The notes: a model not told the origin generated them from the letters alone. A DNA stretch of 64,000 nt from an uncultured Christensenella sp. (GCA_949296965.1 CASFQL010000012.1:36259-100258), one strand, 5' to 3'. Positions 10,018-55,861 are shown, counted from the first letter of the stretch. Numbers and translations: made by a program.

Positions 10018-10030
10018 TTTATTTTTCCTT

Positions 10031-21416: not shown

Positions 21417-21824
21417 ATGGAAGACGAATTAAACAAGTTTAAGGAAAAGAATTTGCAAAATAATTCTTCAAAGAATTTAGAGCAAAATCCGCCTAATAAA
21501 AATTTTTCTATGAGTTCAAATTTAAGTTCGGACAATGCAAATGGAGTTAATATAAAACCTAACTCCAATGTTTTACATTCTTCTACTTTTAATAATTCAA
21601 ATTTAGGACATTCTAACTTAAATCAAAAAGTAAATCTTTCAAATTCTTCTTCGACCTTTAATTCTTCAAATAATTTGAGTTCTTCCATAAATAATACTCA
21701 AAGACCTTTAAACAATACTCAAAGTCCGTTAAATAATAATTCAAATCTTTTAAAAGATGATAAGAATGTTTCCTATAAAGAAAATATTCCACAAAATAAT
21801 TACAAAGGCAAAAAGAGTAAAAAA
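21417..21824 (+). other. Giant protein aa 1-136: N/S-rich low-complexity, presumably cytoplasmic head
   Basis: NNSSKNLEQN...SNLSSDNANG...NSSSTFNSSNNLSSSINNTQRPLNNTQSPLNNNSN, ending in the basic stretch YKGKKSKK directly before the TM helix (positive-inside). Confidence 0.6.
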
Positions 21825-30800: not shown

Positions 30801-33800
30801 TATGTCCTTGATGGAACAAAAGACTTTAAATACTATAAAGACAATGGACTTGCCATTCCTACTGATATTACTGTTTATTCGATTTGGGAAATTCCAAATG
30901 TTAGCATAAAACTTTATTTAGGTAGTGAACCAATTTCGTCTTATAGATATTTTGGCGATGATAGTAATGGAATTAAAAGAGATAGCAATAATCAAGTTTA
31001 CCTTGAAAGTATTTCATCTTTAAAGAGCACTCATAAATTGCCAAGTTTAACTAATTTTTATTTGAAAGATATGGTCGCCGTAGCATATTCAAAGTCTAGT
31101 GATTTGTCAAATCCTTTTATTAGTGAAGAAATTACAATTGATACAAAGGATATTATTAAACACGAAGATGGCTCTTATGAATTTAAGTTGTATATCAAGT
31201 GGGACAATGCGGATAGTTATATTTTAGGCTACTATAATGGACTTAATAAATACTTTGCTAGTTTTGATAGTTGTTTATCTTTTGTAAACAATATCTTTGA
31301 AAATGAACCAACAAATATTTATGACAATGCTATATATGATAAAAAGATAGTAGAATTGTTTATCCTTGACTTATATGATACTTTTACTATTACAAAAACT
31401 ACAACAGTAAAGGAAGAATTTACTTTAACTATTAACTTAGATGAAAATGTAAAGAATAATAAGAGTTTAGTTAGAGCAGACGACTTTACAGATTATTTGT
31501 TTGTTGTTAATGAGGGGGCAAAACTTGTTGTAAATTCTAAAACAGGTTTTGAAATTTCTTTTGATGGAAAAGAAATTTTAAGTAATGGAATGTTTAAGGT
31601 TGTTTCTGGCGAACTTGAATTTAATTCAGGGGTTGTAGTTAACAATAGTTATAATTCTGGGCTTGAAGTTAGGGAAGGTTTTGGTGCTGTTGGTGGAGTA
31701 ATTCAAGTTGATAATGGAAAGATATCATTAACTAATGTTAAGTTTAGTAACAATGGAGTAAAATCTTCCGTTGATGCTTATGGTGGGGTAATATTTGCAT
31801 TTAACTCTCTTGTTAATATAAGCGGTTGTGAGTTCCAAGATAACTTTGTTCAATCTTCATTAAATGCTTATGGTGGGGTAATTGCACTTGTTGATTGTAA
31901 GAGTGATAACTTTGATGATACATCACTTAGAAACAATATCAATAATAGTATTTTTAATAATAATTTTGCTACAACTACTAGTTCAAGTCAAAACAATTAT
32001 GCCTTTGGTGGTGGTATTTATAATTACAATTCAGACTTTGCTTTTGAAAGCGACTTTATATATGCGGTTTCTTCAAATAAGGCAGACACTTCTGGTGGTT
32101 TCTTATATTCAACCACTCAAACGGGGGCAACTAATTTAATTAATTTTAAAAAGACTTCATTTACTTCTAACTATGCTCTAAATGGGGGTGCTTTATTTAT
32201 TGAAAACTCCCTTGTAAAACTTGATAATATAGAGTTTAGTCAAAATGGATTTATTTTGCTTAGCGAAACTGAAGTAATTTATGCAGAGTGTGGCGGGGCT
32301 ATTTATGGTGGAGAAAATGCTCAAATTGAAATGCTTAACACTGATGAAAATGTTTCAGATAGTGGAGATGGAGATAATAGTTTAGTTACAACAACTATTG
32401 GTAAATTTATGAGTAATTTTGCTAGAAATGGTGGGGCTATTTACTCACTTGGTAATGACCTTGATATATCTTCATTAATGTTTTATAACAATGGACTTCC
32501 TATGACTTCAAATGATGGAAAAGGTGGAGCATTATACCTAGGAAGTGTTGGTGAAAATGTAAATAATGTTTCAATTGCGTTCTCACAATTTAAGTTTAAT
32601 ATTTCTAAGTATGGTGGTGCAATTTATGTTGATGGTAATGTTATTTTAAATATTGATGCACCACAGGCTACTAAGGACCAAATTCAAGCAGTTTTGGATA
32701 AGGGAAGTGAAGTTACAGAAGAAACTTTAAGATATGTTAGCAATACTTTCTCTACTAACTATGCTGAATATGGTGGAGCAATTTACTATAACTCAATACT
32801 TAGTTCAACTATTGACTATTCAATTTTTGAATATAATATGTTGAACGCAGGTTATGATGCAAAACCTAGTTTAAAAGGTGGTGCAATTTATAGTGCAAAT
32901 GGTGAGTTAACTCTTAAAGATTTTGTTTGGATTTATGAAAATTATGCTGTTGAAGGCGGTGGTGTTTATGTTGGGGCAGACCAAGGACAAACATCAGGGG
33001 AAGAAGAAAATTCTGTTGCAAAACTTATAGTTATAGGAACAAAATTTTATTATGAAAACAAAATAGTTGGAGATTATAACAATATAAATGCATATCATGA
33101 GGCAGTAGAAAAACTCGAGGAATTAAAAACTTCAGGGGCTTCGCAAGAAGAAATCGACGAAGTTCAGGCTGTCGTTGATCAACTTAGAGAACAAATTAAA
33201 GGGGAAATTATTACAGAAACAAAAGGTAATAGAGCAACATATGGCGGTTCAGTTTATATAGGGCAGTTTGGTTATGCAGATTTGTCTAGCGGTGGTAATA
33301 GGGGAAATACTATGTATGACCTTGAAAGAGGTGATGCTGTATATAATTTAGGAACTTTAAAGATTGGAGATTTTGACATTTATCAAACTAATGTAAATGG
33401 TAATATAACAACTATTTACAACTGTGGAGATTTTGAAATTTATGGCTATGGTCAGATTAGACCAAGTCCAAGAATTTATCTTTCTAAAAATAGCGACAAT
33501 ACAGGGTATAATTACATTTTGATTTCAAATTTAAATTATAGTAATGTTTCTAGTATTGAACTTGTAATCTCTACTGATGATATTATACTTAATTCGCCAC
33601 TTGTTAAGTTTGCTTCACAAGAAGCATATGATGCCTTTGTTAATAATGCTGATAATGAAAATTTGTTTAGCGTTAATGATCCTACACTAATACTTGATGC
33701 TGATGTAGAACAACTTGCACTTGTTTTACATTATAGAAGTTATGAGATTAAGTTTGAAGATTTGAGCCAAGATAAAGATAAACTCAATTTACCTTTACCA

Positions 33801-36800
33801 ATAACTTTTGAATATGGGGAAACTGTAAGTGAAGAATTTATAACTTCTTTAAATAATTTAACTGTTTTAAGAGATGGTTACTCTTTTGTGGGTTGGGCTT
33901 ATTTCGTCCAAGACGATGTTGACGGTAATGTTTTATTAGACTCTAAAAATACGGGAGTAAAATATTCTGGGGTTGATTTTGTTGAAGTCTATGACTATTT
34001 AGATTCATCTATCAAAGGAAAGCATTTCTATTTACTTTCAAATTTAGTTGAACACACTAGCAGTTATAATAGTTTATTACCTGCTCACAATTTCTATTTA
34101 TATCCAATTTGGAAACCTGATGAGTATAAAATTAGTTATTCATATGCTTCAAATGAAGGACTTGAAAATTATGCCATAAATGGTATACAAGTAACAGATA
34201 GTTATCTTAATGCTTTAAGTAGTGTTGAATATTATAACAACTATTATACTATAAAATCTTTACAAGATTTGAATGCTTCTGTTTTTGCTAAATATGTAAC
34301 TATTTCAGTTGTTGAAGAACAAAATGGAATAATAAAAACAATTAAATATAATAACCTTAACTATCCTGTAACTTTTGATGAAAATTTTGGTTACTATTCT
34401 TTTTCTATTATGTCAGGTGAGTCTGAATTATTAGAAAAGTTTTATATTGAAAGCAATACAAGTGCATTTTCTATATTAAATGTTGATGAAAATGGATATA
34501 TTTATTCTACCCTTGACACTTCAAAACTTTATCCTATACAAGTTGTTATTGATGGACAAATTGTTGATGTTGTTAACTCAACTGTTTCTTATAATGGAGA
34601 AAATTATGTTCTAAGGTCTCTTTATAGACCAGACGGATATGAGTTTGATTATGTAGTGATTAATGGAGCAAAAAATTATTCGCTTGGAAGTCAATTTTTA
34701 ATTAGTAGAGATAACCCTTATTCTATTTGTGTAGGAAGTGATAAAAATCTTGTATTTAATGTCTTCTTTAAAAAGATTGCTCAACAAATTGAGTTTGTAA
34801 TTGACGAAAATAATTCGTTTACTATAAATAGATACAGCGGACAAGAAATTTCTTTGCCTAGTGGAAATGTTTGCAGTTATGATGATGTTAGTTATGAGAT
34901 TTATAAAGATGGTTATGAATTAAAAGGCTTTGTCGACCAAAATGGTAAAAATTATGCACTTGGAGAAACTTATCTTGTAAAAGAAAATTCGTCCAATAAG
35001 CATATTTTTACAGCAGTTTGGGAAAAGGCTATATGTTATATTGAAAATGGTGTTATGATTAATGGCGAATTTAAGCCAAAATATTACACAAGTTTAGAGC
35101 AGGCTTTTAGTGACATAAATAATGGGAATTTGACAACTAATTTAGATAACTATAGGATTGTTATTATAGGTAATAATTTTATTTATCAATCACAACAAAA
35201 TAGTTCTCTTTTAAATTTAGTTGGGGCATCTAGTTCAGTATATGAAATAAGTATGATTGTTAATCAAACATTTGTAATCACAAAGAATATTACGCTTGTT
35301 TTAGAGGGGAATAATGTTTCTTTAAGATTAGTATATGCTGATGATTTTGATAAATCTAAACCAATGTTTGAAGTTGTCGAAAATGAATTTACTTTGGGTG
35401 GAAATGGAGTATCAATTACATTAGACGGAACAAGGACTGATGGAACTAATAGTTTGGTTGTTGTTGAAGAAAATGGTAATTTTATCTCAAATGTCGGGGT
35501 AGAATTTACAAATTCTACAATTGATTCAAAATTTGGAATAAATGACAAAGGCGGTGCTTTAACTGTAAATGGTAAGGCAACTATTAATTCGTCAGTTTTT
35601 GCAAATAATAGATCAAATAACGGCGGTGCAATATATGTTGCATCAAATGGTAATTTAACTATTTTAGGTAATGATAGTAATGTAAACCTTTTTGTTAATA
35701 ACTCTGCAACAAACGGTGGGGCAATATATTTAAGTCAAAATTCAAGTTTATCAATTACGGGTAAAGATGCTTCAAATAATATAGTTTTAAGTCAAAATAC
35801 GGCAGATAATGGCGGGGCACTCTACCTTAATAGTTCTTTATCAAGTTTAAGGCTTGAAAACATTAATTTAGTTAACAATGTTGCTAATTTATATGGTGGT
35901 GCAATTTATAATAGCGGAGATATTAAGTTAGATTACGATTTAATTTTTACAGAAAATAGTGCTTCAATTAGTGGTGGTGCTATCTATACCGTTGGCAAAT
36001 TGGAAATTTCTAAATCTACATTTAATAATAATATTTCTCAACAAAGCGGTGGTGCTATTTATAGCGAAAACAACTTAAATGTTAATAATGTAAAATTTCT
36101 TCAAAATAAGGCAGGTGCTGGTAGTGGTGGTGCTATTTATGCTAAAAATACTTTATATGTTAACGGACAGACATCATTTAATGAAAATAGTGCTAACTAC
36201 GGTGGGGCTTTATATCTAAATAATGTTAGCGGTGAAATTTCTAATACTACTTTTAATAAGAACACTTCAATAAATGGTGGAGCAATTTATCTTAATTCTT
36301 CAAATATTACTTTGACTGAAAGTTGTCAATTAACAAACAACATCGTTTCTGTTTCTTCTTCTGGGGACGATAATGTAGCAGCATATGGTGGAGCAATTTA
36401 TGTTAATAATAGTCAAGTCCACATTTATTCAACTATTAGCGAAAATTATAGCGATACAGAAGGTGGCGCTTTATATGTTTTAAATGCTTCAAGGGTTGTT
36501 TTATATGAACAAAGTAAAATAACTAACAATACCTCTTATGGTGTTGGTGGCGGTATTTCTATTAATGGAAGTTCAACTTTAACTTTCAATTCTAATCTTG
36601 TTGAGATATCAAACAATAGTGCTTCAAAGTATGGTGGAGGTATTTATTATAATTCTAGTGCTATTAGTGTTTTAGATGGTGGAAACATTTACGGAAATGA
36701 TATTGAATTTGATAAGGACGGACTTAAAAAAGGTAAAGAAATTTATTTGACTACAAGCACAACTTTAACTCTTAATAACACAATAATTTGTGAAAAGAGT

Positions 36801-39800
36801 AATATTCAAGGGCAAACAAATGTTTATGATATTTATATTGGAGAGAATGCTTTACTTAATATGAATTCATCTGTTGTTTATGGCAGTATTTATGTAAAAG
36901 ATATTGAGTTTAATAGAGAACCAATTAATGGAATTAATTTTAATTCTTCAAGTTTTGCAAGAGATATTCACTTAAATCAATACAGATATATAAGTATTGA
37001 TGGTTACCTAAATTCTATTTTACTAGAAGATAATAAAATTAATATTCATTTTAGTTACAACAAACCTGGACTTACAACTAATACTCCAAACAATACAAAA
37101 ATTATTAGATTTTTAAGCGAAGATAGTTTAAATAAGAACATTATTTACTTTAACTTAGTTAGAGATGAAGAACTTAGAGATTATACTCTAACTTATGAAA
37201 ACGATGGCTACTATTCTTGGGCTGTTATTAAAGAAATTGCAAAAGAAATAAGAATTAATCCAAATGGTGGGAAAATTATCTTTAATGATAGTTATACTTC
37301 TGAGATTTACGAAGTAAGTGGCAATGAAATTTTAACTATCTATGACTTGCCAGGCAGGGGTAGTTTAGAGTTTTTAGATGAAATTCAAGGTTATAGGGCA
37401 GGTTATCAAAAACTTGATTACTATATTGATATGGATAACAACAAAGTGTATACTTCAAGTAGCATTTTGCCTATTATCTTAATTACTCTAAATGTTCAGT
37501 GGAGCGAAAAAGAATATAGTGTTAATTTGTTAACAACTCAGGCTAATGGTAGTGAAAAACAAGAAAAGTTAACTATAAAATATGGACAAGATATTAAATT
37601 AAGAGAGCCAAGTTTAGATTACCATAGTTTTGTAGGTTGGGAACTTGCTTATTATAAAAATTCTAATTTAGTAAAAACAGGCATAATTTTTGAAAAAGGC
37701 TCAAACTTTAATCTTGCTAATATTAATAGAGAAGATTTAGTTTCAAGTATTACAGGTCAAACGGGAAGTCAAATATTTGAAAGTGTTGATTTGTCAACTT
37801 CTACATTCTACCTTTACAGTGTTTTTGAAGAAGTTCAAGTTGAAATTATTGTCAAAACAAGTCAGGGTATGGTCGTTGAAACTCAAAATTCTAAATACGA
37901 GAGAGAAAAGATTAACGATTTTACTTATAAATATTTAGTTAGTCAATCTAATATGTATGTAAATTACAACGATTTTGTCGACGATTTTGCTTACCAAGAC
38001 CATGTAGTAGATGGACTATTTACAGGAACAAATGGCATTTATGAAAAAAATATTGATGTTATGTATGATAGAAATAATTCATCTATTTCAATTTCAAATA
38101 TTTCATCTCTTACATTAAATTGTTATTGGATTAAGGTAGAAGCCTATATTAGAAAACCAAATGTTGAAGATAGTTCAAAAAATAGAGTTAATTATGAAAG
38201 TTTGCTTGTTGCTGTCAATAATTTAGTAAGTGGAGATGAACTTGTCATAGTTGCTTCATCTATTGATATTCAAAGCACTCTTATATTTAATGAAGATGTA
38301 ACTGTCTTTGCAAGGGGAAATGTAACACTAAATAGAGCAAAGAATTTTGCTGGTCAATTAATTTTGATTAAGGCAGATGTTGAGTTTAAGGGTGAAACAG
38401 AAGAAAGTTCTTTAACTATTAATGGTAATGGCAATGAATTGCTTGAAGATGGAAGCACAAATCCAAAATATACTGCTTTTTCAAATTACGGAGCATTTTA
38501 TGTAGAGTTTGGCTCATCACTTTTACTTGGTGAAAATATTACAATTAAAAATAATGTTTCAAAGTATTATGGGGCTGGTATTTATGGAGAAGGCGAAGTT
38601 ACTTTAAATGGAGTTACAATTAGTAACAATTTAAGTTATGAAAATGGTGGAGGAATTTACTCAAAAGGCAACTTAACCTTAGAAAATGGAAATATTACTA
38701 ACAACTCGTCAAATAAAAATGGCGGTGGAGTCTATGTTGCTTCAAATAAATTATCAATAAATAATTCATTTATAAACAACAACACTGCTAAAAATGGTGC
38801 TGGATTGTATTTTGAAAGTTTAGTGAGTGCTGAAATTAGTGGTGGGGAAATAAATAATAATGCTTCGTCATTGTTAACAAACTCTTATGGTGGCGGTGTT
38901 TATTTAGCACTTAATTGCGGGGTTGTTACATTTAAACAAAATATTGTATTAAAGGGTAATTCTGCTTGCTATGGCGGTGGTATTTATGTTGCTGGAAATA
39001 ATAATGGATATAATGAATATACAGTTATTTTAGATGGTGTTAATATCTTAGAAAATTCTGCAACTTATGGTGGCGGTATTCAAATTGGTAATGAAACAGA
39101 AAATTATTCGTTACAAAAGGTTAAACTTAGCCAAGGTTCAATTCAGAACAACTTGTCAACTTATGGTGGTGGTGTAGGTATATTTAGAGGACAATTTGAT
39201 TTGATTTCAGGCACAATTTCTCAAAATAATGCTAAATTTGGTTCTAATATCTTTGTTAGTGCAGTTGATAGTAAGAGTTATGGTTATGTTAAAATTTCTG
39301 GTGGAATTGTTGGAGATGAAAATAATTTAGGAAGTATTTTAGTCGAAGCAAAAACTTCTACGATTTTGGGTGTTTTGGAGGTATGCTCAACTTATAAAAT
39401 TTATTCTACCGTTTTATTACTTAATAATGCTTATATTAGTGTAAAATCAAATATAAGTGACGATAGTTCTAATATTGTAATTAGACCTATTAGCATAGTT
39501 TCTAATGAAATTGTTGACAATTATCCTTCTTTTGATAGTCAAATTGTTGCAGTTAAATTTGACAATGTTAACCTTGTTAAAACTACTAAATTTGATTTGT
39601 TGGAAGAAGCAAAATCAAAGCAAGAAAATAGTTATAGATTAAAGCAAGTTGATGAAAATATTGTTATTTGTAGGGCAGTATTTACTTTAACTTTTGACCC
39701 TCAAAATGGAAGCATTTCAACTAGTGGGGAATATGACTTTATAAAAGATAATCAAAAAATTTCTATTGATATGGCTTACACTTCTAATTTATTTGGTTTG

Positions 39801-42800
39801 TTAGGCAGTATTTCAGTTAGTTATGAAAACAAAGATTTCCTTTATTGGTATTACCTAAATGAAGAAATGGAAATTGTTGTAGATGAAGTTACAACAATGC
39901 CTTATAGTGATTTGACTTTATTTGCTAAGTGGAGTGTTGATTATTACACCTTATCTATTGATTTAAATGATTCAAGAACAAATAGTGGAAATAAAGCAGT
40001 TGTTGACATTGAGGCAGCAAGTGAAATTGAAGATTTTGTTTATGATGAACAAAGTAGAATTATTAATTTAAAAGTCTTTATTGATGATGAGTCTTCAAAT
40101 TATGGGGAGAGTGCTTTAAAAAGTATTTATCCTTTAATAACTAGATATGGATATGAAATTATAAGTTTTAGCACTTCGCAAATATTAGGTCAGGGTTCTT
40201 CATACAACGCAAATGGAAGTGGCTTTAAAATGCCAAGCGAGAATATTACATTATATTTAATTTGGAATGCAATGCAATATTCAATTATTTATTCTTCAAA
40301 TAGACCAAATGAAACTTCTGCAGAAGAAAAAATCATAAGTGATTATAAGTTTGATGAATTTATCAATTTAGCAACAGCAGAGTTGTTTAGTTGCGTGGGA
40401 TATAATTTGGTTGGTTGGAGTTACACAAAGGGCAATCAAAATGCAGACTTTTCTGTTGGGGAAAAGGCACTTAATATCCTTAGAGAAGATAATCAGTCAG
40501 TTAGATTGTATGGCGTTTGGGAACCTATTCAGTATAAAGTTATTTATGATAGTAATGCACAAGGTAGAGTAGTTTCTGGTCAGGTGGAAGACCAAATATT
40601 TGTTTATGATGAAGAAAACTTCTTAACTTCAAATAGATTTACTTCTCTTGGATATACTCAAATAGGTTGGAGTTTAAGTAAAGTTGTAAATGATGGTGAT
40701 GAGTTCTATGAATTTGAGGACGGACTAATTGCAGTCAATTTGACAAGTGAAAGTGAAGTTACTCTCTATGCAGTTTGGAGCAATAACTCTTATAAAGTAA
40801 ACCTTTATAACAGACAAGGGAGTATGATTGTTAGCACAATTACTGCTTTCTATGATGAAGATAATCTTAATTTGCCACTTGCTAGTCAGTTATTTGGAAG
40901 TGTAGAAAATAATCTCTATTTTGCTGGTTGGAGTTTGACTTTGCCTAGTGAAAACCAAGAAGTAAAATATTTAGATGGTGCGGTTATAGACAATTTTGTT
41001 TATGAAGGAGAGATTAACTTATATCCTGTTTACTGTGAAAGAAGTGTAATAATTAATTCAAATAATGAACAAAATATTACTTTACCTTTAAATATTGATA
41101 GCCAGGGTAATGTTACTATTTCCAAAACTCAAATTGAAAGTCTTATGACCTATTCAGGTTTTGAGATTGGGTATTTGGGGCTTAGCAATGTTCATAGTGA
41201 GAATGAGAAAAAATATGAATTTGGTAATAATGAAGAAATTATTTTAAATGTTATTACTGAAAACTTTACATCAACTGAGTTATTTATTATTTGGCAGGCA
41301 AAGCAATATCAAATTAACTTTATTGTTAATGGTAAAGAATATGCCGAATTTGCTAGTCAAGTAAAAAGCACAAAAGTTTCTCAGGGTAATGCTTATTCTA
41401 CTTACCAAGACAATAATACAGTTACATTGTATTCAAATATTGTCAGCGGAATTGAACTTATAGGTTGGAGTTTTGATACAAATCAAAATATTGTAAATTA
41501 TTTGCCTAATACAAGTTTTGAACTTACAAATCAAACTCTATCAACTATTGCCACATATGGACAAATTGTTGACAATGTAATAACTGTTTATGGAGTAACT
41601 CAAAAAGAATATTCAATTACATATAATCTTAATACAGATATTCAAAATATAATTATAGGTTCAACAACTTCAATTACTAGCAAAAATTCAATAAAAACAG
41701 GAACATTACTAAATAGCAATCCTGTTCAAATTAAGTTTAGCGATTACTATGGTAATGTTTGGGAGATAGCATCTAGCAACATACAAGATAGTTCATCTAA
41801 GTTTGCTTACTTCTTAGGCTGGTCATTAAGTCCAACAGCAACTAGTGCAGAATACTATGATGGTATGGATTTATCAAAAGTTATGTTTGTAGGAGATGTT
41901 ACTCTTTATGCAGTTTGGGGAGAATATACTAATACTTTTTACTTCGATTATGAAGAGACTACAAATGGCGTAATTTTAACATCTTTAAATCAGTTGGGAA
42001 TAACTAATTTAGAAGACAATTCTGAAATTATTTTACCAAGACACACTTTAGTATATAATGATGGCGATTTAAGTTATGGTAAAGAAATTGTTTCTATTAA
42101 GTCTTTAAATAAAGTAGATACAAGTGTTTCATCAATTAATTTGAAGTTTATGTCAAGTTTACAGTCAATACCTTCTCAGGCTTTTGCTGGTTATAAAAAT
42201 TTGAAAGAAGTTGTAAATATTCCACAATCTTGCGACATATCAGGTGGAGCATTTATAAGCACAAGTTTACAGCGTGTTACTTTCATAACTAGTGAGGAAC
42301 CTGTATATGTTACAGATTTATCATACAATGTTTACAAGGTAGACAACAATTCGGCTCAACTAATTTCATTCTTATATGTAAATGCTTTGTCTGAAATGGA
42401 ATTAGAACTAAATTCTTCTATTCAAACTGAAAAGAGGACATATTTATTATCGTCAATTCTTTCAAATGCCTTCTATGGCTTAGAAGTTACAAATTTAATA
42501 ATACCTGAAAGCGTTGAAACTATGAACGAAGGTAGTTTAAACGGACTAAATAATTTAGTATCTCTAACACTTAACTTTATAGGCTATGACAATCAAGTAA
42601 CTAACGATAATAATCAAACCTTTATATTTATGTTTGGTGGACTAGAAAATATTTCATCAAAACTTACAACTATTGTTGTTAGAGATGAAAGCGAGATAGT
42701 AAATAGTTCTTTTGCTGGAATTACAAGTCTTGTTAGTTTGACATATCTAAATGGAATAACAAGTATTGGTAGTGATGCTTTTAATGGGTGTATTAACTTA

Positions 42801-45800: not shown

Positions 45801-48800
45801 GGGCAAGTTACAATGAACGCTAATGTTGAACTTGTAAATAACATTGCAAATTATTCTTCTATTATAAAGGTAACAAACCCTGATAATGGAACTATTCAAA
45901 ATGTTGACAATACTTCTAATGGTGGTGCAATTTATGTTGACGGTGGCTCTTTTACAATGAATGGCGGACTTATTTATAACAACAAAGCAGAAAATGGTGG
46001 TGCAATCTTTGTTAAATCAGGTAATGTATTTATTGTGGAAGGCACTTTGGGTAGACAGGTCATTGATGGAGATATTGTAAATAATAATTATGGATATAAT
46101 GTCGCTAGTGAAAATGGTGGGGCTATATTTGTTCAAAGCGGAAGTGCTTATATTTATGAAAATGCTTTAATTTCTGGTAACCTTGCAACAAATGGTGGAG
46201 CAATTTATAGTAATGGTATTGTAAGTTTAGAAAAGGCAAAAATTGAATTTAATACTGCTCTTCAAAATGGTGGAGCATTATATCTAAACTCAAATTCAAT
46301 TATTGATGCTTCAAATCATTTTACTTTAAGTTGTGTTGACATTTCAAATAACAAGGCACTTCAAAATGGTGGGGCAATATTATTACTTGCTGGAAACCTT
46401 TCGATTTTGGGAGAAAGTCAAAGTGAGACAAGCAAATTCTATCTAAATTATGCATTAAATGGTGGTGCTATTTACAATTGTGGAACAGGAAAGTTTAATA
46501 TAACTCTTACGGACTTTTATTCTAATAGTGCAACTAATAATGGTGGTAGTATTTATTTTGAAAATGAAAGCATTTCAAATTCAAGCGAGATTGTAAACTC
46601 AAAATTTGGAGTAACAACTCCAAATACTGCTAACCTTGGTGGAGCAATCTTTATAAATAGTGGTAAACTTACAATTTCTTCATCAAGCATTGTTTTAAAT
46701 ACTGCTTTAAATAATGGTGGTGCAATTTATGTTGGTGGTAGTGGTAATTTACTACTTAATACGACTCTTAGTGAAAATATAACAACAATTCAATCAAATT
46801 CTGCAATTAATGGTGGGGCTATATACATTGATACTAGTGGTGATGTTGAAATTTTAGGGTGCTACATTTCAAATAATATAGCAACAAATAATGGTGGTGC
46901 TATTTATCAAGTAAATGGAAGTTTAAGACTTGTCCAAACATCAGGTCAAAGTTTGGGTGGAGTTAGTGAAAATACTTCTACTTATGATGGAGCTGGACTT
47001 TATCTCATCGGCGGTTATGCTAGTTTGGAGTCTGCAATAGTTAGCAGGAATGTGATATCTTCTGGTAATGGCGCGGGGTTATATATTAGTGGCGCTAATG
47101 TTGAAATTAGGGGCTCTTCAATTAGTAATAATGTTATAAGTCAAAGTAGTGATATTAATTTAGATAGAGATGGCCAAGGCATATATTATAATGCAGGAAA
47201 TGTAACACTTTATGGGGATAATTTTATTAATAATCCTATTAATGAAGCAGAAAGCAGGTCTGGGTCAATAGTGATTGAAGGAACAACAAGTTTAGATCAG
47301 TGCTTTACTCTTGCTGGGGTGATTAATAATTTAGTAGACGCTTTCTACTTAAAAACTAGGGATAGTTGGATAAATACACTTGAAAAAGATTATTCTGGTT
47401 CAGATGATGGTTTTTCTGTTAATGATCAAGGGAACCCAACTGTTCTTATAAAAATTAATGAAGAAAAGTTATACAATGATAAAATAGTAAAATTTACTGC
47501 TCAAAGTTTAGCACAATATAATTATTTAAAATATTTTGAGCTTCCACTTTCGACTAAAAAGTTATTGGTTGTTGGGCAGGGAGATTTGGCTGATTATATT
47601 GTATTAAGTTATCAATATTTTTATATTATTGGTAAAAACGATAACAAATTAGAAGTAGACAAACCTGTAAAAATTATTGCGGCATATGATGATTTGCAAG
47701 AGGCGATTGATTCACTTAACCTTTATGAAGGTAAACTTAAAGACACTGAAAAAGGTTTCTTAATCATTGCAAATATTGTAAATGAAACTCATACTTTTAC
47801 ATTTGATAAAACTATTACTATAAAAAACGATAGTTTACTTAGTGTTAAGAAAATAACTATAACTTCGCTTACTGAAAATGTTAAGTTTGTTAAAAGTGAT
47901 AGTTCAAAAGATTTTGAATTTATTTCTGTTGAAGAAGGTTATGAGTTAGTTTTAGGAATTAACGAAGATTTTAGTAGTTATTATGATATACTTTTAGAAG
48001 AAACTTTTGATAGTTCCGTTTATAAAAATGCTTTAACATTTGTTGGAAGTGATGAAAGTTTATCAAGTATGATTGTTAATAATGGAACACTTCAATTAAG
48101 AGAAGGCACAGTATTTACAAATCAAAATTCTTTACAAAATGGGGCAGTTGTAAATAACTATGGGACATTAATAGTTGACGGTGCTAAAATATTTAACAAT
48201 AGTGCAGAAAATGGCGGAGCAATTTATTCAAATACAGGTTCAACACTGAATATTAATTCCGGTTATATTCATAATAATCTAGCAACTAATGGCGGAGCAA
48301 TTTATCTTGCTAATGGTTCTACTTCAAATATTTATGGCGGTTTTATTGGTATTGGAGAAGAAAGTATTATTAGTGAATACAACTTAACTAAGACAGGTAA
48401 TAATGCAATTGATGGCGGTGCCATTTATGTAGACGGGGCAGTATTAAATATTTATGGCGGAGAAATTGCTAATAACTATGCATCAAATAATGGTGGGGCA
48501 ATTTATATAACAACTTATACAAATAATTCTCAAAATATTCATTCAAAAGTTTCGTTACTTCAAAATGACTCTACTTCTATAAATGTTCAAATATATTCAA
48601 ACGAGGCTTATATGTATGGCGGGGCAGTCTATGTTGAAGATAACAATATGAATAAAGATGTAGACTTTGAAGAAAGAAGTAGTTTTGTATTTAATGCTGG
48701 AAGTATAAACAGAAATAAATCTGCTTCTGGTGGAGCCCTTTATGCAACCTCTTTTGTCTTAAATAATGGAGAAAAGAGTTATAATGGTGCAATTAAAGAA

Positions 48801-51800
48801 GAAGATGGTTTAACATATACTTATGGAGTTTATGTTGAGATAAATGGGGGTAACTTTGAAAGCAACTCAGCAAATTATAGGGTTATAAATGACACTTCTG
48901 TTGGTGGAAATGGTGGGACAATTTATCTTTATGGTGCAAATAGTAAAATCTCTAATTCTATTATAGAAGGTATTAAGTCAGAAATTGGAGTAGTCGATAC
49001 AAGGACTGCTTTAAATGGTGGTGGATTATATCTTAACAACTCTTTTGTTTTAGTAGGTAATAATGTCAACATTAGATTTAATGAAGTTTCAAATAATGGT
49101 GGAGGTATATATGTTGACGCTAATTCTAATTTAAAAATTGATGGAGATGAAAATACTATAATTTCTTCTAACAAAGCAACTTCATCAAATAGTAAGGGTG
49201 GTGGTATTTACCCAGAAAAAGGTGCAAAAGTTAACCTTGTTGCAGTTACTATTAGATTAAATTCAAGTTTAGGCTTGGGAGATGGAGTTTATGTAGACTC
49301 TAACGGCAATGATTTTTCAATAGGTGCTGGTATGGTTAATGGAGAAATTGCGAAACTCTCAAATAATTTGAAGATAATTGATAGCATATATCTTGTAACG
49401 GGAAGCATTATCTATGTTGATGGTAGATTTAATAGCGACTATTACAACAATGAAAATGAAGAAAACTTTATAACTATTGTTAGTGATTATTCTTCTAGTG
49501 TTAGTTTAAATGATGAAACTAGAAATGTTGTTGCTGAGTATAACAATAATATTCCACTAGAAGATACTTTAAGTATTGATGCAAAATTATTTAAGGGTAG
49601 CGATAGAACAGGTAAGGCATATTGCTTTATAATTTACGAAGATTATAAGGTTGCTATTGGAATTGCAAACATTGCTAAGAAAGTTGAAGGTAGTTCTGTT
49701 ATTAGATTCTATGAAACATTAGAAGATGCTATAAATAGAATTTCAACTGATGAAACAATGACAACTATATTCATTCTTACTAATGTATCAGTTGAAAGCA
49801 AAATTTATATTAAGTCTAATAATATCTTAATTAAGTGCGGGGAGAAAATTGAGGAAGATAATGAAATTAAGGTTAAGGAAGATACCGACTTAATTTATAC
49901 TATTTCGATAGGGGATATTGATACAGGAGATATTTTTGAAATTTCAAATAATGAAAATTCAACAATTATAGAGTTTAGAAAACTTAATATAGTCGGTAAA
50001 GAGTCCAATATTAGATTATTTAATGTTTTTAGTGGCACGCTTACTTTAAATGGTGTCAATATATCAGGGTTTAGGAGCGAGTTAGATGGTTCAATCTTAA
50101 ATGCTAGCGGTGGACAAATTAACATAATGGGGGAAAAAGAAAGCAATAGTGGTGTAGAAAATTATTCTACTCAAATTACGAACAATACTGCTAAAAATGG
50201 TATCATTAATGTTAATACACTTGCTTCTTTAAGAATCTCAGGTAACGGCGTTAAATTTTCTAATAACACAGCATTAAATGGAATTGTTTACATTGACACA
50301 TACGGAGAAGTTTATTTAGAAGAAACTGTTTTCGGGGGAACATCATTATCAACTAATATTACTGAAAATGGTGGTGCAATCTTTATTCAAAATGGTTCTT
50401 TAACATTAGATAGAGCAGTGTTGGAATACAATAAATCAACAAATGGTGGTGCTATTTATTATAATGGCGGAAGCATTATTTTAAATGATAGTAGTATTAA
50501 ATATAATACAGCAGTTAATGGTGGCGGAATTTACTTTAATGAGTCTTACGCTTTTGCAACAAAGGAAGAAACATCATCAAAATTTAGTAATTATGCAGTA
50601 ACTACTATTTTAGGTAATAATGCAACAAATGGCGGTGGAATTTATATTAACAATAATGTTACTTTAACAGGCGTATTAGAAATTAGTTCTAACATAGCAA
50701 GTAATAATGGTGGTGGCATTTATGTTAATAGAAATTGCCAACTTATTTTAGATGATAATGTTTTAATAAGTTCTAATAAATCAAACTCAAATGGGGCTGG
50801 TATTTATTTAGGTGAAAGTTCAAAACTTAATGCTTTATCAAGTGTTGCTACACTAAACACAAGAAACGACTTATCTAAATCAATTTTTGGCGGTGGGATA
50901 TTTGCAGAAAGTAATACGGTAATTAACCTAAATGACAATGCGATTATTTCATCAAATGAGTCACAAAATGGGGCTGGAATTTACAGCAAAGGCATAGTTA
51001 ATATTTTAGGTAATGCAACTATTTCAAATAATGAAACTACGGGGAATGGTGGTGGAATTTATGTTAATGGAAACTTAACAATGAATAATGGTTCTATTTT
51101 TGCAAATAGTGCAACAAATGGCGGTGGAATTTATCTAAATAGCGGCAAGATAGAGTTTACAAATGGTGTAATTGGTGGAGATTTCTGGTTTGGTTATGAG
51201 GGAAGTGAAAATTTAGAAAATTCAAAAAGTGGGAACTATGCTTCAAATAATGGTGGTGGTATTTACATTAACGATGGCGAATTTGTTTTTGGAAGTCAAA
51301 GTGTATCTAAGTCTACTAATGATACCCAAAAACTTGCTCAGGTATTGTTTAATTTTGCTCAAATTAACGGTGGCGGAATTTATATTAATAAAGTTAAAGA
51401 TACAGGTGTTAATACAATTTATAATGATTTCATTGTTACTCAAAATGTAGCAGAAACGGCTAGCGGTGGTGGAATTTATATCCAAAGCGGTAAACTTAAT
51501 ATGCTAGGTGGACAAATTGGTGGTCAAGTATCAGAAACAAAAGAAAGTTCAACAACACAAACTAATACAGGAAATGTAGCAGTTAATGGCGGTGGAATTT
51601 ATATTGGAAGTGGTGTAAAGGAAATTAATTTAGAAGGCGGAACAATTTTAGGTAACTTTGCAAGTCAAAATGGTGGTGGAGTTTATGTTGATATGAATGG
51701 CGATAACGATGTTGTTGTTAATGTAATTTCACAGATTATTATTTCTAATAATAGTGCAGTTAACGGTGCGGGAATATATATATCAACATATACAAGTAGT

Positions 51801-54800
51801 TCAAAATCAAATGGTGGAGTAATAATGTCGGGTGGATATATTAAGAATAATATAGCAAGTAACTCTGGTGGTGGTGTTTATAATGCTGGAAGATTTGTTT
51901 TAACAGGTGGCGAAATTGGTGGAAGTGATGGCGAAGGTAACGAAGCAGTTTATGGTGGTGGTATATATAACGAAGGTTATCTAAATATTAAGGACAATGT
52001 AGAAAGAATTGATACAGAAACTATTGATGAGATAAATGTAAATAGTAGTGTAACAAGAAACATAAAAATTTCTTATAACAAGGCAACTAATGGTGGTGGA
52101 ATATTTATTTCTGACACACTAGATAGTGGCGAAAATAGTTCTCAAATAATTAGCGTTTTAATTAATAATAATACTGCAACAAATGGTGGCGGAATTTATT
52201 ATTCAAATGGTGAATTAATTTTTAAAGATAATAAGATAGTTGGGAATAAAGCCCAAGGCGTTTCACCAGACGAAACAGGTTCTGCTGGAAATGGTGGTGG
52301 AATTTATATTGCTTCAAATTATACAAATTCTCCAATATTAGAGATTGTTAATTGTTTAACATTTAGCAATTCAGCAACAAATGGCGGTGGTATTTTTGTT
52401 GAGAGTGGACGAGTAATACTTACATTTGATTCTAGCGCTAACCAAACTGTTGTTTCAAATTCAGCAACAAATGGCGGTGGTATTTATGTTAAAGGCGGAC
52501 TAATTGACATTTCAGGTAAAGGCAGTGATAGCAATGAACAACTTTATAGTTTTGCTATTAGTAGTAATACTGCAACTATGGCAGGTGGTGGACTTTACAA
52601 TGAAGGTGGAGTTGTAATAATTACAAACACATTATTTACTAAAAACACAGTAACAAGTTCTAGTGGAAATGGGGGAGCAATTTATACAATGTCAAATGCA
52701 ACGCTTTCTTATCGTAGTAGTGAATATCAGGGTGTATTTGTCAATACAATAATCTTAGAAGAAAATTCAGCAACAAATGGTGGTGGAATCTATATTAATT
52801 ATGGTAAAGCAACTTTAAAGAGTGGGCAGGTATTTAAAAATACTGCTGAAAATGGTGGAGGAATTTATATAATAGGAAATAATTTCCAACAAACTGCATC
52901 GCTAGAAATACAAGATTTAAAAATTTACAACAACATCGCAAGTAGTAGTAATAGAGATGCTAATGGTGGTGGTATTTATATAGGTGAATATGCAACTGTT
53001 ACTTTAAAGGGTAATAGCAATGTTAGCGAAAATATAAATAATCTTGCAAATATCTCTAACATTTACGAAAATTATGCTAGCAAAAATGGTGGTGGAGTTT
53101 ATTTGTATGGAGCAAATTCAGTATTTAACTTTGAAAGTGGTGTAATTTACAACAACTATGCTGCCTACGGAAGTGGTATCTACATTAATGGAACTAATAG
53201 TGAGACAAAACTAACAATGCAAACTGATGCATTTATTATTAAGAATGGTAACTACTCTAATCTTAGTCAAATATTTAAGACATTTGGGGGTAGTAAGATT
53301 GTAAAATATACTGTAAATTATGGCGGTGGTATATATGTCACATATGGTAGTTTAGATTTGAATGGAAGCATTTTAAATAATATTGCAACAGATGGTGGCG
53401 GAATTTATATAAATAATACTGTGTATAATTTTAGTGGTAATCCACTTATTGGTGCAAATGAAAAACTTGGACTTAATGGCAATGAAGCAATAAATTGTGG
53501 CGGTGGAGTTTATGTTTCTTCAAGTGGGATTGTATCGTTAAAGGGTGTTATTTATAAAAATACTGCAACAAATGGCGGTGGTTTGTATTCTAGTGGAAAG
53601 CTTACAATTGGTGGAGAAACAAAAGATGATTCAAATGGTTTTGTATTAATTTCAGGCAATAAGGCTACAGATGGTGGTGGAGCATATGTAAATGGTGGAG
53701 AAACAACTTTCGGAATAAACAGTATAGTTGGTCAAAATAGTGAAAGAACTAATTCTGAACAAAACGGAGATGTTGAAACTTCTTATCAATTATATAATGA
53801 AGCTTCGAATAATGGTGGTGGTATTTACATTAAGGCTGGCACAGTTAAAATGAGTGGTTTTGTTGGATATAACAGGGCTTCAAATAATGGTGGCGGTATT
53901 TGTGTAGATGTTGATATTAATTCGCAAGACGAAAATGCTTTTGTTTCTTTAACAATAGGAGAATTGAATAAAGAAAGTGCAGTATCACATAATGTTGCAA
54001 CAAATTATGGTGGCGGTATATATGCTAACTTTGGGATATATGATCCTAGTAAAGATTCTGAAAATGTTTTAATTATTAGTGGTGGTATAATTAAACTTAA
54101 TGAGAGTGGTAGTAAAATAGATAGAACATTAAACTACTATATGCCAGAAGCAAATGCTCCTAATGTTAAAGTTACTCCATATGCACCAGAAGTTCATATG
54201 TATAATGGTAGACTAAAAATGCAAGGTGGTGTAATTCAATATGAAACTCCACAAGATAAAGATTCTAGCGATATTATTAATTACCTTGCACTTTATTGGG
54301 TAGCCGATGGGCAAAACGATATTGATTTCAATAACAATACGGGAGCAATTAAAGGAAATATATTTATTGATAATGGAAACAAATATGTGATAATTAATAC
54401 AAGTTGTATTGCTTTTGATAATAATAGTGAAGACGAAAATGCAAATAACTCAAAACTTTTCCAAAGTAGTCATATTAACGAACTGCCTATAAAATTCTAT
54501 AATTACTATTACGACCATCATGTAGAACAGACATTTGATTTAGTTGAGTCTATATTAGGAATTTTCCAAGGTGAATTTAATATTATGCAAAATAAAAGAG
54601 TTTTTGAAATTTATCTTAACCCAAATATAAGTGGGTTATATAGAGTAACTGGCTCTGATAAATTTTTAGGTTCATCATTTATTTGGATTCCAGATATTAA
54701 TTATGATGAATTAAATGGTTTTGTTAATTCAATTGCTGGTTGGATTAATAAAGCAATAGATTTTTTAGGTCTACAAGATGTAATTAAAATAGATGACACA

Positions 54801-55223: not shown

Positions 55224-55275
55224 CATAAAGGCATTAAGTTAATCTTATAATCTACTAATCTAGCAAGTTAACTAA

Positions 55276-55305
55276 AAAGAGTTGTGTTATGCAACTCTTT
55301 TTTGT
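55276..55305 (+). terminator. Rho-independent terminator of the giant gene
   Basis: AAAGAGTTG (55276-55284) pairs with CAACTCTTT (55292-55300) around a 7-nt loop, followed by TTTTG. Confidence 0.8.
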
Positions 55306-55405: not shown

Positions 55406-55861
55406 ATGTTAAAGAAAGAAAAAGATATGGATAGATATAACAAATTTAATTCTTTACTTGCTCAAATAAATAGAAGTATAAATAGAATAAAAAATAGAGA
55501 GGCTAGTAAGTTAGGTATAAAAAGTTTTGCAATATCTACAATTTATATTTTGTTTGTTTATGGGCAAATTTGTGCAAAGGATATTGTAAAAATTAGTGGG
55601 GAAGATAAGTCGATAATTTCAAAGGCACTTAACTATTTAAAGAAGATTGAATTTATAGAGCATAATGTTGCCCAAGAAAAAAAATATGGTGCTTTAATTT
55701 CTCTTACTGATAGTGGGCGTTTAATTGGCTCTAAAATTCTTAATAAAATAAACCAAACTATTGCTAAGGCTGGTAGTGATTTTAATGATGATTCACGGGA
55801 AAGTTTTTATAATAGTTTGGAGTTAATTAGTGATAATTTAGAAAAGTTGGTAAATATTTAA
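55406..55861 (+). CDS. MarR-family transcriptional regulator
   Basis: 151-aa ORF. The start may instead be ATG 55427 (MDRYNKF), which follows a purine-rich stretch. wHTH region ICAKDIVKISGEDKSIISKALNYLKKIEFIEHN...KKYGALISLTDSG. Confidence 0.75.
   Translation: MLKKEKDMDRYNKFNSLLAQINRSINRIKNREASKLGIKSFAISTIYILFVYGQICAKDIVKISGEDKSIISKALNYLKKIEFIEHNVAQEKKYGALISLTDSGRLIGSKILNKINQTIAKAGSDFNDDSRESFYNSLELISDNLEKLVNI

What the first reader, a model, noticed from the sequence alone, without database searches (positions are those of the whole stretch)
31209..54419. Seven divergent copies of a composite cap / PMP-type beta-helix / stalk module
Each GGxIY-rich block opens with the same kind of cap, a short alpha/beta element containing Y..(S/T)L.(D/E/Q)A(I/V/F). 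Examples are YYTSLEQAFSDI, NYESLLVAVNNL, TYGSLKQAISDA, NYATLKDAVEQS, AYDDLQEAIDSL and FYETLEDAINRI. The cap is followed by '...I.I....I' strands.

Each block closes with a similar GGxIY-free stalk, I(Y/H)L....Y(I/V).(I/V)DG-type, for example IHLNQYRYISIDGYL, SIYLVTGSIIYVDGRF and FVYLNKGCVVYVLDKF.

Modules fall into an NGGAIY subtype (2, 4, 5, 6) and a (N/Y)GGGIY subtype (3, 7). Module length ranges from about 510 to about 1,590 aa. In the first half of the protein, modules alternate with Listeria-Bacteroides-type repeat arrays. Modules 4-7 are directly concatenated.

PMP-type repeats are best known from chlamydial autotransporters. I do not know of a description of a tandem capped-helix cassette on an N-terminally anchored protein.
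Basis: partly seen in the sequence, partly recalled or inferred. Interest (0 to 1): 0.7.

Follow-up and report, generated by a model that had tools for sequence, protein, structure and literature searches.

The report
Giant surface protein with seven beta-helices
An 11,268-residue, membrane-anchored surface protein of an uncultured gut Clostridia bacterium really does carry seven capped PMP-type beta-helix modules, but this tandem design is already described in gut methanogen adhesin-like proteins, so it is a large new member of a known kind.

Summary
The observation largely holds. One ORF (window 21417-55223, 11,268 aa) has a single N-terminal TM helix. All 89 GG[AG][ILV][YF] motifs fall in seven blocks and none in the other 5,433 aa. 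Pfam or TIGRFAM PMP models score above cut-off in every block.

AlphaFold2 models of M5 and M6 give beta-helices (core pLDDT above 90). All listed PDB matches are right-handed beta-helix proteins.

The cap (strand plus helix, Y.[STD]L..A[IVF]) is supported for M2-M7: 7 motif hits against 0.11 expected, conserved in colinear relatives, and recovered by leave-one-out HMMs. M1's cap is not recovered.

The stalk is weaker. BLAST and MAFFT find nothing. Profile-profile comparison supports in-register similarity only among M3-M6. AF2 models the M6 stalk as about 100 aa of short strands and helices (pLDDT 59-90).

Smaller corrections: M4 is a mixed subtype, not NGGAIY. The Listeria-Bacteroides repeats between modules score below Pfam threshold.

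The novelty claim fails. M. smithii YP_001273761 is N-terminally anchored with seven RBH domains (PMC11532034). One metagenomic protein (P0177) has seven directly joined cap/helix/stalk cassettes. Colinear relatives keep modules M2-M7 in the same order at 26-34% identity.

Most likely function: a fibrillar, multivalent adhesin.

The parts
21417..55223 (+). Giant ORF, 11,268 aa, the single gene that holds the whole finding
   Evidence: An identical 11,268-aa product is called on Logan contig ERR10610602_6657.
21417..21824 (+). N-terminal tail of 136 aa, N/S-rich and low-complexity, presumed cytoplasmic
   Evidence: Sequence. The K-rich stretch KGKKSKK lies just before the TM helix.
21825..21890 (+). 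The only strongly hydrophobic segment (aa 137-158), an N-terminal membrane anchor or uncleaved signal anchor
   Evidence: Kyte-Doolittle scan. It is the only 19-aa window above 1.6, with a maximum of 2.87.
21891..31208 (+). About 3,100 aa of divergent Listeria-Bacteroides (Flg_new)-like repeats forming the proximal part
   Evidence: Flg_new scores 33.6 bits (cut-off 27), best stretch aa 785-861, when the N-terminal 4,540 aa are scanned whole. A rescan of aa 162-1528 alone returned no family. GW...LYA.W motif pairs are present. No PMP motif occurs here.
31209..33737 (+). Module M1 (aa 3265-4107): PMP beta-helix with a helical insert; its cap is not supported at sequence level
   Evidence: Chlam_PMP 23.4 bits. 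The cap is not recovered by the leave-one-out HMM.
35037..37271 (+). Module M2 (aa 4541-5285), GGAIY type; cap YTSLEQAF at aa 4557; stalk from aa 5184
   Evidence: Chlam_PMP 104.8 bits with 9 stretches. Cap leave-one-out i-E 1.2e-5. Stalk leave-one-out i-E 3e-4.
38148..39695 (+). Module M3 (aa 5578-6093), GGGIY type, the shortest; cap at aa 5593; stalk from aa 5999
   Evidence: TIGR01376 27.6 bits. Cap leave-one-out i-E 3.7e-4. hhalign stalk matches to M4 and M6 are in register.
41964..43223 (+). BspA-type leucine-rich repeat domain between M3 and M4
   Evidence: PF13306 LRR_5, 103.4 bits, 5 stretches.
43224..45452 (+). Module M4 (aa 7270-8012), mixed GGA/GGG units; cap at aa 7285; stalk from aa 7944
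45453..47651 (+). Module M5 (aa 8013-8745), GGAIY type; cap helix at aa 8026-8035; stalk from aa 8643
   Evidence: AF2 gives the helix core a pLDDT above 90 and places a cap helix exactly on YATLKDAVEQ. Chlam_PMP 61.1 bits.
47652..49676 (+). Module M6 (aa 8746-9420), GGAIY type; cap strand plus helix at aa 8751-8766; stalk at aa 9324-9420
   Evidence: AF2 with relatives in the alignment gives mean pLDDT 75.8, pTM 0.80 and stalk pLDDT 59-90.
49677..54416 (+). Module M7 (aa 9421-~11000), GGGIY type, about 1,580 aa with one cap (aa 9432) and no internal cap
   Evidence: The colinear relative P0125 keeps one long module here.
54417..55220 (+). C-terminal 268 aa, non-repeat and without relatives, with an acidic DIDIDIDLDID run and an amphipathic hydrophobic tail
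   Evidence: No Pfam hit. No relatives found.
55274..55302 (+). Terminator-like hairpin just after the stop codon
   Evidence: 1 found against 0.1 expected.

Best explanation
The region encodes the distal 70% of a giant fibrillar surface protein, most likely an adhesin. The host is an uncultured, low-GC, Christensenellales-like gut Clostridia bacterium.

The protein is held in the membrane by one N-terminal TM helix and projects about 11,100 aa outward. A proximal run of Flg_new-like beta domains comes first. Seven right-handed parallel beta-helices follow, built from PMP-type (hxxN...GGxIY) rungs.

Each helix opens with a strand-plus-amphipathic-helix N-cap, which shields the open end of the helix. 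Four to six motif-free turns follow before the PMP rungs begin. Each helix closes with a motif-free segment of about 70-110 aa. That segment starts with an 'IYL..g..I.V' rung and leads into either the next cap or the next repeat array.

The modules are ancient paralogues, 25-32% identical, not recent duplications. Their order is kept in colinear relatives. This suggests that each module supplies a distinct binding surface on a fibre with roughly 100 nm of beta-helix.

Shown here: the ORF, the anchor helix, the PMP repeats, the beta-helix fold of M5 and M6, cap conservation and module colinearity. Inferred: surface display, adhesion to glycans or to other cells, and the capping and linking roles of cap and stalk.
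For: - ORF and single hydrophobic helix.
- PMP models score above cut-off in all seven blocks, and the motif is confined to them.
- AF2 beta-helices for M5 and M6, with cap helices on the motif.
- All listed Foldseek PDB matches are right-handed beta-helix proteins. They include Rhombotarget A, PL6 lyases, GH87, tailspikes, and the adhesins or autotransporter passengers Ag43, PfbA, pertactin, Hap and L. reuteri SRRP.
- Cap statistics and the held-out HMM test.
- Cap and stalk patterns sit at aligned positions in colinear relatives. P0125 aligns to aa 5402-10869 at 27% identity. P0263, P0144, P0121, P0124 and P0199 also align colinearly.
- No long DNA repeats are present, only 30-68-nt PMP-motif units at 60-80% identity.
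- The nearest sequence relatives of M2 are Methanobrevibacter adhesin-like proteins. Those are described as N-terminally anchored, multi-RBH surface proteins (PMC11532034).
- A BspA-type LRR domain, a common surface-adhesion module, lies in the same protein.
- Neighbouring genes place the locus in Christensenellales-like Clostridia: Tex is 87% identical to 'Christensenella sp. UBA7862'.
Against: - No binding or localisation experiment exists.
- No cell-wall anchor (LPXTG, SLH or similar) was found, so retention rests on one TM helix.
- AF2 covered only M5 and M6. The fold of M1-M4 and M7 is inferred from repeats.
- Foldseek E-values are weak (best 3e-3), although the fold class is unanimous.
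- The stalk is poorly conserved in sequence. M1 and M7 stalks are unsupported by hhalign. The fold of the M5 stalk was not predicted with confidence.
- Beta-helices are also the fold of many glycan-cleaving enzymes, so a catalytic role for some module is not excluded.
Confidence: 0.72

Rival explanations
1. Some or all modules are polysaccharide-degrading enzymes (lyases or hydrolases of the pectate-lyase fold) displayed on a giant scaffold. The protein would then be a surface glycan-processing machine rather than a passive adhesin.
For: Foldseek matches include PL6 alginate lyases and chondroitinase B, GH87, GH28 polygalacturonases and phage tailspike depolymerases. The giant-gene preprint links giant proteins to cell-wall degradation (10.1101/2023.11.21.568195).
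Against: No catalytic family (PL, GH or Beta_helix enzyme models) is hit by Pfam or NCBIfam in any module. Only the PMP repeats are hit. The matches to enzymes have weak E-values and 7-15% identity and reflect the shared fold. The closest structural match, Rhombotarget A, and the closest sequence relatives, the methanogen adhesin-like proteins, are not known enzymes.
Confidence: 0.12
2. The fibre delivers a variable C-terminal effector, as in contact-dependent inhibition or polymorphic toxins. The beta-helix rod would be the delivery stalk and the relative-less C-terminal 268 aa the payload.
For: The C-terminal 268 aa have no relatives. They differ from the C-termini of colinear relatives. The gene is hypervariable between congeners: 26-29% identity against 83-87% for Tex.
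Against: No toxin, pre-toxin or immunity family is detected. The next gene is a weak TrmB-like 151-aa protein followed by DegV and Fe-ADH housekeeping genes. Relatives end in hydrophobic helices that look like anchors, not toxins. An N-terminal TM anchor is unlike known two-partner or type VII delivery systems.
Confidence: 0.06
3. The 'stalk' is not a distinct homologous element. It would be only the degenerate last turns of each helix plus an unrelated linker, and the apparent shared motif would be hydrophobic beta-strand periodicity picked out after the fact.
For: BLAST finds no significant stalk pairs. MAFFT misaligns the stalks. Leave-one-out HMMs fail for M3, M4, M5 and M7. My loose regular expression was written after seeing the sequences, and 300 shuffles reached 6 hits at least once.
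Against: That loose motif hits exactly six times in 11,268 aa, each time 58-117 aa after the last PMP unit of M2-M7. hhalign matches among M3-M6 start at position 1 in both partners, and reversed controls do not. The same 'VYLASGKVITVG...I.P...VL...F.L' element closes each cassette of the unrelated protein P0177. AF2 gives the M6 stalk a pLDDT of 59-90.
Confidence: 0.25

Closest known systems
Adhesin-like proteins (ALPs) of gut methanogens, e.g. Methanobrevibacter smithii YP_001273761 (PMC11532034)
   Same: They have an N-terminal TM anchor and several tandem right-handed beta-helix (RBH) domains, seven in YP_001273761. Each domain carries the conserved N-terminal alpha-helix cap. PMP repeats are present, the sequences are N/T-rich, the proteins are very long, and the habitat is the gut. 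Methanobrevibacter ALPs are among the top sequence matches to module M2. P0001 and P0002 hold 2-3 cap-plus-PMP modules.
   Different: They are archaeal. In YP_001273761 the helices sit next to the anchor and are followed by archaeal Big domains. Here Flg_new-like repeats come first, and the helices are distal and partly interleaved with repeat arrays and a BspA LRR. This protein is 2.4 times longer. The 'IYL..g..I.V' stalk is not evident in the ALP sequences I inspected.
Chlamydial polymorphic membrane proteins (Pmp autotransporters; PF02415 / TIGR01376)
   Same: The same repeat type (GGA[ILV] with hxxN) is matched above the curated cut-offs. A beta-helix passenger with an adhesin role is established knowledge for Pmps.
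   Different: There is no autotransporter beta-barrel and no PMP middle domain. The host is a Clostridia-type bacterium. The anchor is an N-terminal TM helix rather than a C-terminal barrel. There are seven helices instead of one.
Rhombotarget A (PDB 9cdu / 9cdv; TIGR04212)
   Same: It is the best structural match of both AF2 models (probability 0.95-0.99). M4 gives a weak sequence hit to TIGR04212.
   Different: The score is 17.3 bits against a cut-off of 295, so this protein is not a member. RbtA is a single helix of about 450 aa with a GlyGly-CTERM sorting signal.
Metagenomic multi-cassette PMP proteins, e.g. P0177 (2,686 aa) and the colinear relatives P0125, P0263, P0144, P0121, P0124, P0199
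   Same: P0177 has seven directly concatenated cap / GGGVY-helix / 'VYLASGKVITVG' stalk cassettes. The colinear relatives keep modules M2-M7 in the same order and at similar sizes, at 26-34% identity.
   Different: P0177 cassettes are short (about 200-590 aa) and near-uniform, and the protein has a lipoprotein-like signal rather than a TM anchor. None of these proteins is named or studied.
Giant (10,000-30,000 aa) Clostridia proteins from mammalian gut metagenomes with Listeria-Bacteroides repeats (bioRxiv 10.1101/2023.11.21.568195)
   Same: They share the size class, the taxon class, the habitat and the presence of Listeria-Bacteroides repeats.
   Different: That survey does not describe PMP-type beta-helix cassettes. 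Its 'beta helix' refers to antiparallel structures in Omnitrophota proteins.

Membership tests
PMP / POMP repeat proteins (PF02415, TIGR01376) | Repeats matching the curated model above its cut-off | tested here: met
   PF02415 scores: M1 23.4, M2 104.8, M4 27.9, M5 61.1, M6 31.7, M7 31.8 bits (cut-off 20.6). M3 scores 18.5 in Pfam but 27.6 in TIGR01376 (cut-off 15).
Chlamydial Pmp autotransporters | C-terminal autotransporter beta-barrel and PMP middle domain | tested here: not met
   Neither family is reported in Pfam scans of the whole protein.
Right-handed parallel beta-helix (pectin-lyase-like fold) with N-terminal helix cap | Predicted three-dimensional fold is a right-handed beta-helix | tested here: met
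   Tested for M5 and M6 only. AF2 core pLDDT is above 90. All listed Foldseek PDB matches are right-handed beta-helix proteins, although the best E-value is only 3e-3.
Right-handed parallel beta-helix (pectin-lyase-like fold) with N-terminal helix cap | Amphipathic alpha-helix capping the N-terminal end of each helix | tested here: met
   AF2 helices fall at aa 8026-8035 (M5), 8760-8766 (M6) and 9435-9439 (M7), each preceded by a strand. The motif is enriched 7 against 0.11. The leave-one-out HMM recovers M2-M7. M1 is not recovered.
Methanogen adhesin-like proteins (ALPs) | N-terminal membrane anchor plus one or more RBH domains | tested here: met
   TM helix at aa 137-158 and seven PMP beta-helix modules. 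The definition is taken from PMC11532034.
Methanogen adhesin-like proteins (ALPs) | Archaeal Big (ABD) domain repeats and an archaeal host | tested here: not met
   No Big-type domains are hit. The repeats are Flg_new-like and LRR_5 instead. Flanking genes and relatives are Clostridia.
CSLREA N-terminal domain proteins (recalled from memory as TIGR04214, associated with PMP repeats) | Match to the CSLREA domain model at the module start | tested here: not met
   It is not listed for any module in the NCBIfam scan at E up to 1. The resemblance of Y.SL.QAI to CSLREAI is only my recollection.
Listeria-Bacteroides repeat (Flg_new, PF09479) arrays between modules | Pfam match above the gathering score in the inter-module segments | tested here: inconclusive
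   Flg_new scores 33.6 bits (above 27) only when the N-terminal 4,540 aa are scanned whole. A rescan of aa 162-1528 gave no family. The inter-module segments give 20.1 bits, 11 bits and no hit. GW...LYA.W motif pairs are present.
Sortase-anchored Gram-positive adhesins | C-terminal LPXTG sorting signal | tested here: not met
   There is no LPXTG near the C-terminus. Only three loose internal matches occur, at aa 3694, 6486 and 6696.
Rhombotarget A (TIGR04212) | Score at or above the equivalog cut-off | tested here: not met
   17.3 bits against a cut-off of 295. The similarity is structural only.

The most novel reading that the evidence does not exclude
The stalk-to-cap junction (the last strands of one module, a linker of about 10 residues, then the strand and cap helix of the next) may be a dedicated, conserved coupling element. 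It would stack beta-helices end to end into one rigid rod. M4-M7 would then form a continuous distal spear of about 65 nm, and the fixed module order seen in relatives (shown for M2-M7) would encode an ordered series of binding surfaces. A tandem beta-helix coupling device of this kind has not been characterised structurally, as far as the papers I found show.
Probability: 0.2. Interest if true: 0.5.

Novelty: new member of a known kind. Interest (0 to 1): 0.3.

Why it matters
Giant surface proteins take up a notable share of small gut-bacterial genomes, yet almost none has been studied. This gene is 34 kb.

This one gives a clean bacterial counterpart to the multi-RBH adhesin-like proteins of gut methanogens. 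Its host belongs to a Christensenellales-like lineage, and that group co-occurs and flocculates with Methanobrevibacter (PMC7002349, seen). It could therefore be a candidate for cell-to-cell or cell-to-mucus attachment.

The conserved module order at only about 27% identity is of interest for surface-protein evolution. So is the very fast divergence relative to neighbouring genes. None of this changes the picture that tandem capped PMP beta-helices are an established architecture.

Tried and rejected
- A search for relatives of the M6-stalk plus M7-cap junction (aa 9271-9651) found none at E <= 1e-3.
- Searches with the C-terminal region in genomes (319 aa) and in proteins (247 aa) found no relatives.
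- A plain MAFFT alignment of the seven caps and stalks was uninformative for the stalks.
- An iterative HMM to count Flg_new repeats did not expand beyond two copies.
- The search for homologous proteins listed nothing longer than about 1,300 aa, so giant relatives came only from the representative search.
- AF2 job 1 used a shallow alignment and left both stalks below pLDDT 50. Job 2, with colinear relatives in the alignment, resolved the M6 stalk but not the first 90 residues of the M5 stalk.
- No match to any CSLREA-domain model appeared in the NCBIfam scan.
- I considered recent tandem duplication and rejected it. There are no long DNA repeats, paralogue identity is 25-32%, and relatives are colinear.
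- I considered M7 being several fused modules and rejected it. No internal cap hit is significant, and P0125 has one long module at the same place.
I could not crop the stalk for a separate fold search or check the handedness and junction geometry directly.

Full report
**The gene.** The finding lies inside one uninterrupted reading frame, window 21417-55223 (+), of 11,268 aa. The window has 25-33% GC. The same 11,268-aa product is called on an independent Logan assembly contig. A terminator-like hairpin follows the stop codon at 55274-55302. A 1.2-kb spacer of about 18% GC precedes the start.

Flanking genes are ordinary Bacillota housekeeping genes: phosphoglucomutase, DUF1015, Tex, two ABC exporters, DegV and Fe-ADH. 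Tex is 83-87% identical to MAGs labelled Christensenella sp. UBA7862 or 'uncultured Clostridia' from animal and human guts. The host is therefore an uncultured Christensenellales-like gut bacterium.

**Overall architecture.**
- A 136-aa N/S-rich tail comes first, followed by the only strongly hydrophobic segment of the protein, aa 137-158.
- About 3,100 aa of divergent Flg_new-like repeats follow. Flg_new reaches 33.6 bits, best stretch aa 785-861, when the N-terminal 4,540 aa are scanned whole. A rescan of aa 162-1528 alone returned no family, so this support is not robust. GW...LYA.W motif pairs are present.
- Seven PMP blocks follow.
- A BspA-type LRR domain (103 bits) sits between M3 and M4.
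- The last 268 aa hit no Pfam family and have no relatives.
- There is no LPXTG signal.

**Check of the observation: PMP blocks.** The GG[AG][ILV][YF] motif occurs 89 times. All 89 lie within aa 3265-4107, 4541-5285, 5578-6093 and 7270-11000, and none in the remaining 5,433 aa. Pfam Chlam_PMP or TIGR01376 exceeds the curated cut-off in each of the seven blocks. Module lengths are 843, 745, 516, 743, 733, 675 and about 1,580 aa.

Pairwise module identity is 25-32% over the repeat region. The DNA shows only 30-68-nt motif-level repeats at 60-80% identity. The copies are therefore old.

The subtype assignment is partly wrong. M2, M5 and M6 (and M1) are GGA-dominated, and M3 and M7 are GGG. M4 has 6 GGA and 10 GGG units.

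**The cap.** The motif Y.[STD]L..A[IVF] occurs 7 times against 0.11 expected (maximum 2 in 1,000 shuffles). Six occurrences lie 126-220 aa upstream of the first PMP unit of M2-M7.

I used the colinear relatives (see below) to enlarge the training set and ran a leave-one-module-out HMM. It recovers the held-out cap as the top non-training hit for M2-M7, with i-E values from 3e-6 to 4e-4. It does not recover M1.

AF2 places a helix on the motif at aa 8026-8035 (M5), 8760-8766 (M6) and 9435-9439 (M7). Each helix is preceded by a strand. This is the classical N-terminal cap of pectate-lyase-fold beta-helices (Bryan et al. 2011, as cited in PMC11532034).

**The stalk.** Evidence here is mixed.
- BLAST finds no significant pair.
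- MAFFT scrambles the alignment.
- Leave-one-out HMMs rank the held-out stalk first only for M1, M2 and M6. Only M2 reaches an i-E below 1e-3.
- A loose motif, [IVF][YHFL][LI]x4-5[YIVW][IV]x[IVT], hits exactly six times in the protein. Each hit lies 58-117 aa after the last PMP unit of M2-M7. I wrote this motif after seeing the sequences, and shuffles reached 6 hits at least once.
- hhalign of per-module alignments gives in-register matches among M3-M6. M4-M6 reaches 73% probability and E 3e-5. M4-M5 gives E 1.6e-3. M3-M4 and M3-M6 give E about 5e-3. Reversed controls reach at most 1.3% and are out of register. M1 and M7 are unsupported.
- AF2 with relatives in the alignment models the M6 stalk (aa 9324-9420) at pLDDT 59-90. 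Two strands (IYL, IIYV) continue the helix. Six short strands and two short helices follow and run straight into the strand and cap helix of M7.

**The fold.** The M5 core and the M6 core (mean pLDDT 75.8, pTM 0.80) are beta-helical with pLDDT above 90. All 50 listed PDB matches of each model are right-handed parallel beta-helix proteins. They include Rhombotarget A (probability 0.95-0.99), PL6 lyases, GH87, tailspikes, Ag43, PfbA, pertactin, Hap and L. reuteri SRRP. E-values are weak (best 3e-3). The fold class is secure, but no specific family is indicated.

**Relatives.** Module M2 finds 2,419 proteins at E <= 1e-5. The named hits near the top of the list are mostly Methanobrevibacter 'right-handed parallel beta-helix repeat' or adhesin-like proteins. 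Some of these, P0001 and P0002, contain 2-3 cap-plus-PMP modules in tandem.

An exhaustive HMMER search with M4-stalk/M5/M6-cap finds 7,437 proteins at E <= 1e-3. The top 150 are mostly 2,000-7,800 aa with several PMP clusters, and many have an N-terminal hydrophobic segment.

Several are colinear with the giant protein over thousands of residues at 26-34% identity:
- P0125 (6,139 aa) aligns to aa 5402-10869.
- P0263 aligns to aa 3970-7667.
- P0144 aligns to aa 7944-11044.
- P0121, P0124 and P0199 also align colinearly.

Together they cover modules M2-M7. Cap spacing in P0125 (1,652, 793, 745 and 714 aa) mirrors the giant protein (1,692, 741, 731 and 675 aa). This part of the module order is therefore conserved in the lineage. 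M1's helix and cap have no aligned relative.

Congeneric MAGs also carry a giant ORF next to Tex. It is only 26-29% identical where Tex is 83-87% identical.

An unrelated protein, P0177, has seven directly concatenated cap / GGGVY-helix / 'VYLASGKVITVG...' cassettes. The full three-part cassette in tandem is thus not unique to this gene.

**Literature.** PMC11532034 describes the adhesin-like proteins of M. smithii and M. stadtmanae. They are mostly N-terminally TM-anchored, with 43 and 52 RBH domains respectively, a conserved N-terminal alpha-helix cap and frequent RBH repeats. YP_001273761 (4,691 aa) has seven RBH domains followed by 18 Big domains. A preprint on giant genes notes 10,000-30,000-aa Clostridia proteins from mammalian guts with Listeria-Bacteroides repeats.

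**Mechanism.** The best-supported reading is a fibrillar, multivalent surface adhesin. An N-terminal TM anchor holds it in the membrane. Flexible Flg_new-like domains form the proximal part. Seven capped beta-helices make up about 5,800 aa of helix, roughly 100 nm at about 27 aa and 0.48 nm per rung. That length is my estimate.

The cap shields the open N-terminal edge of each helix. This role is established for the fold and inferred here. The stalk closes the helix and links it to the next unit, which is also inferred.

Rival readings:
- Surface-displayed glycan-cleaving enzyme: fold-level matches only, and no catalytic family is hit.
- Delivery of a variable C-terminal effector: the C-terminus has no relatives and the gene is hypervariable, but there are no toxin or immunity signatures.
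- The stalk is merely degenerate turns plus a linker.

**Verdict.** The feature is real and the structural reading is mostly right. M1's cap and the M1 and M7 stalks are unsupported at sequence level. M4 is mis-typed. The inter-module Flg_new assignment is below threshold. In kind, it is a new, very large bacterial member of an already described architecture.

Noticed in passing
window 21417-55223 compared with L002 17522-22159, L003 15360-21725 and L008 12672-22142: The giant gene diverges far faster than its neighbours. In congeneric MAGs Tex is 83-87% identical. The syntenic giant ORF, which is open to the end of each locus (at least 1,546-3,157 aa), is only 26-29% identical.
   Followed up: partly
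window 54417-55220 (aa 11001-11268): The C-terminal 268 aa hit no Pfam family and have no relatives in genomes or proteins. They contain an acidic DIDIDIDLDID run and end in an amphipathic hydrophobic stretch. The colinear relatives P0125 and P0144 end in a hydrophobic helix instead, which hints at a second membrane contact.
   Followed up: partly
window 41964-43223 (aa ~6850-7269): A strong BspA-type leucine-rich repeat domain (PF13306, 103 bits, 5 stretches) lies between modules M3 and M4.
   Followed up: partly
window 55274-55302 and 20190-21416: A 13-bp-stem terminator-like hairpin lies 50 nt after the stop codon. A 1.2-kb spacer of about 18% GC lies upstream of the start. The promoter scan of the spacer found no more sites than in shuffles.
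   Followed up: partly
window 21417-21824 (aa 1-136): A long N/S-rich, low-complexity N-terminal tail, with the near-repeat TQRPLNNTQSPLNNN, precedes the TM helix. It is presumably cytoplasmic and its role is unknown.
   Followed up: no
P0177 (2,686 aa): A metagenomic protein with a lipoprotein-like signal has seven directly concatenated cap / GGGVY-helix / 'VYLASGKVITVG' stalk cassettes. It is a cleaner example of the same cassette.
   Followed up: partly
window ~33070-33200 (aa ~3885-3930) and 47964-48005 (aa 8850-8863): Helical insertions interrupt two helices. M1 has a charged stretch that looks helical by eye (AYHEAVEKLEELK...QLREQIKGE). M6 has an AF2-predicted 14-residue helix in its pre-PMP turns.
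   Followed up: no
window 55406-55861: The first gene downstream encodes a 151-aa protein with only a weak TrmB-like winged-helix hit (18.5 bits, below cut-off). Any relation to the giant gene is unknown.
   Followed up: no
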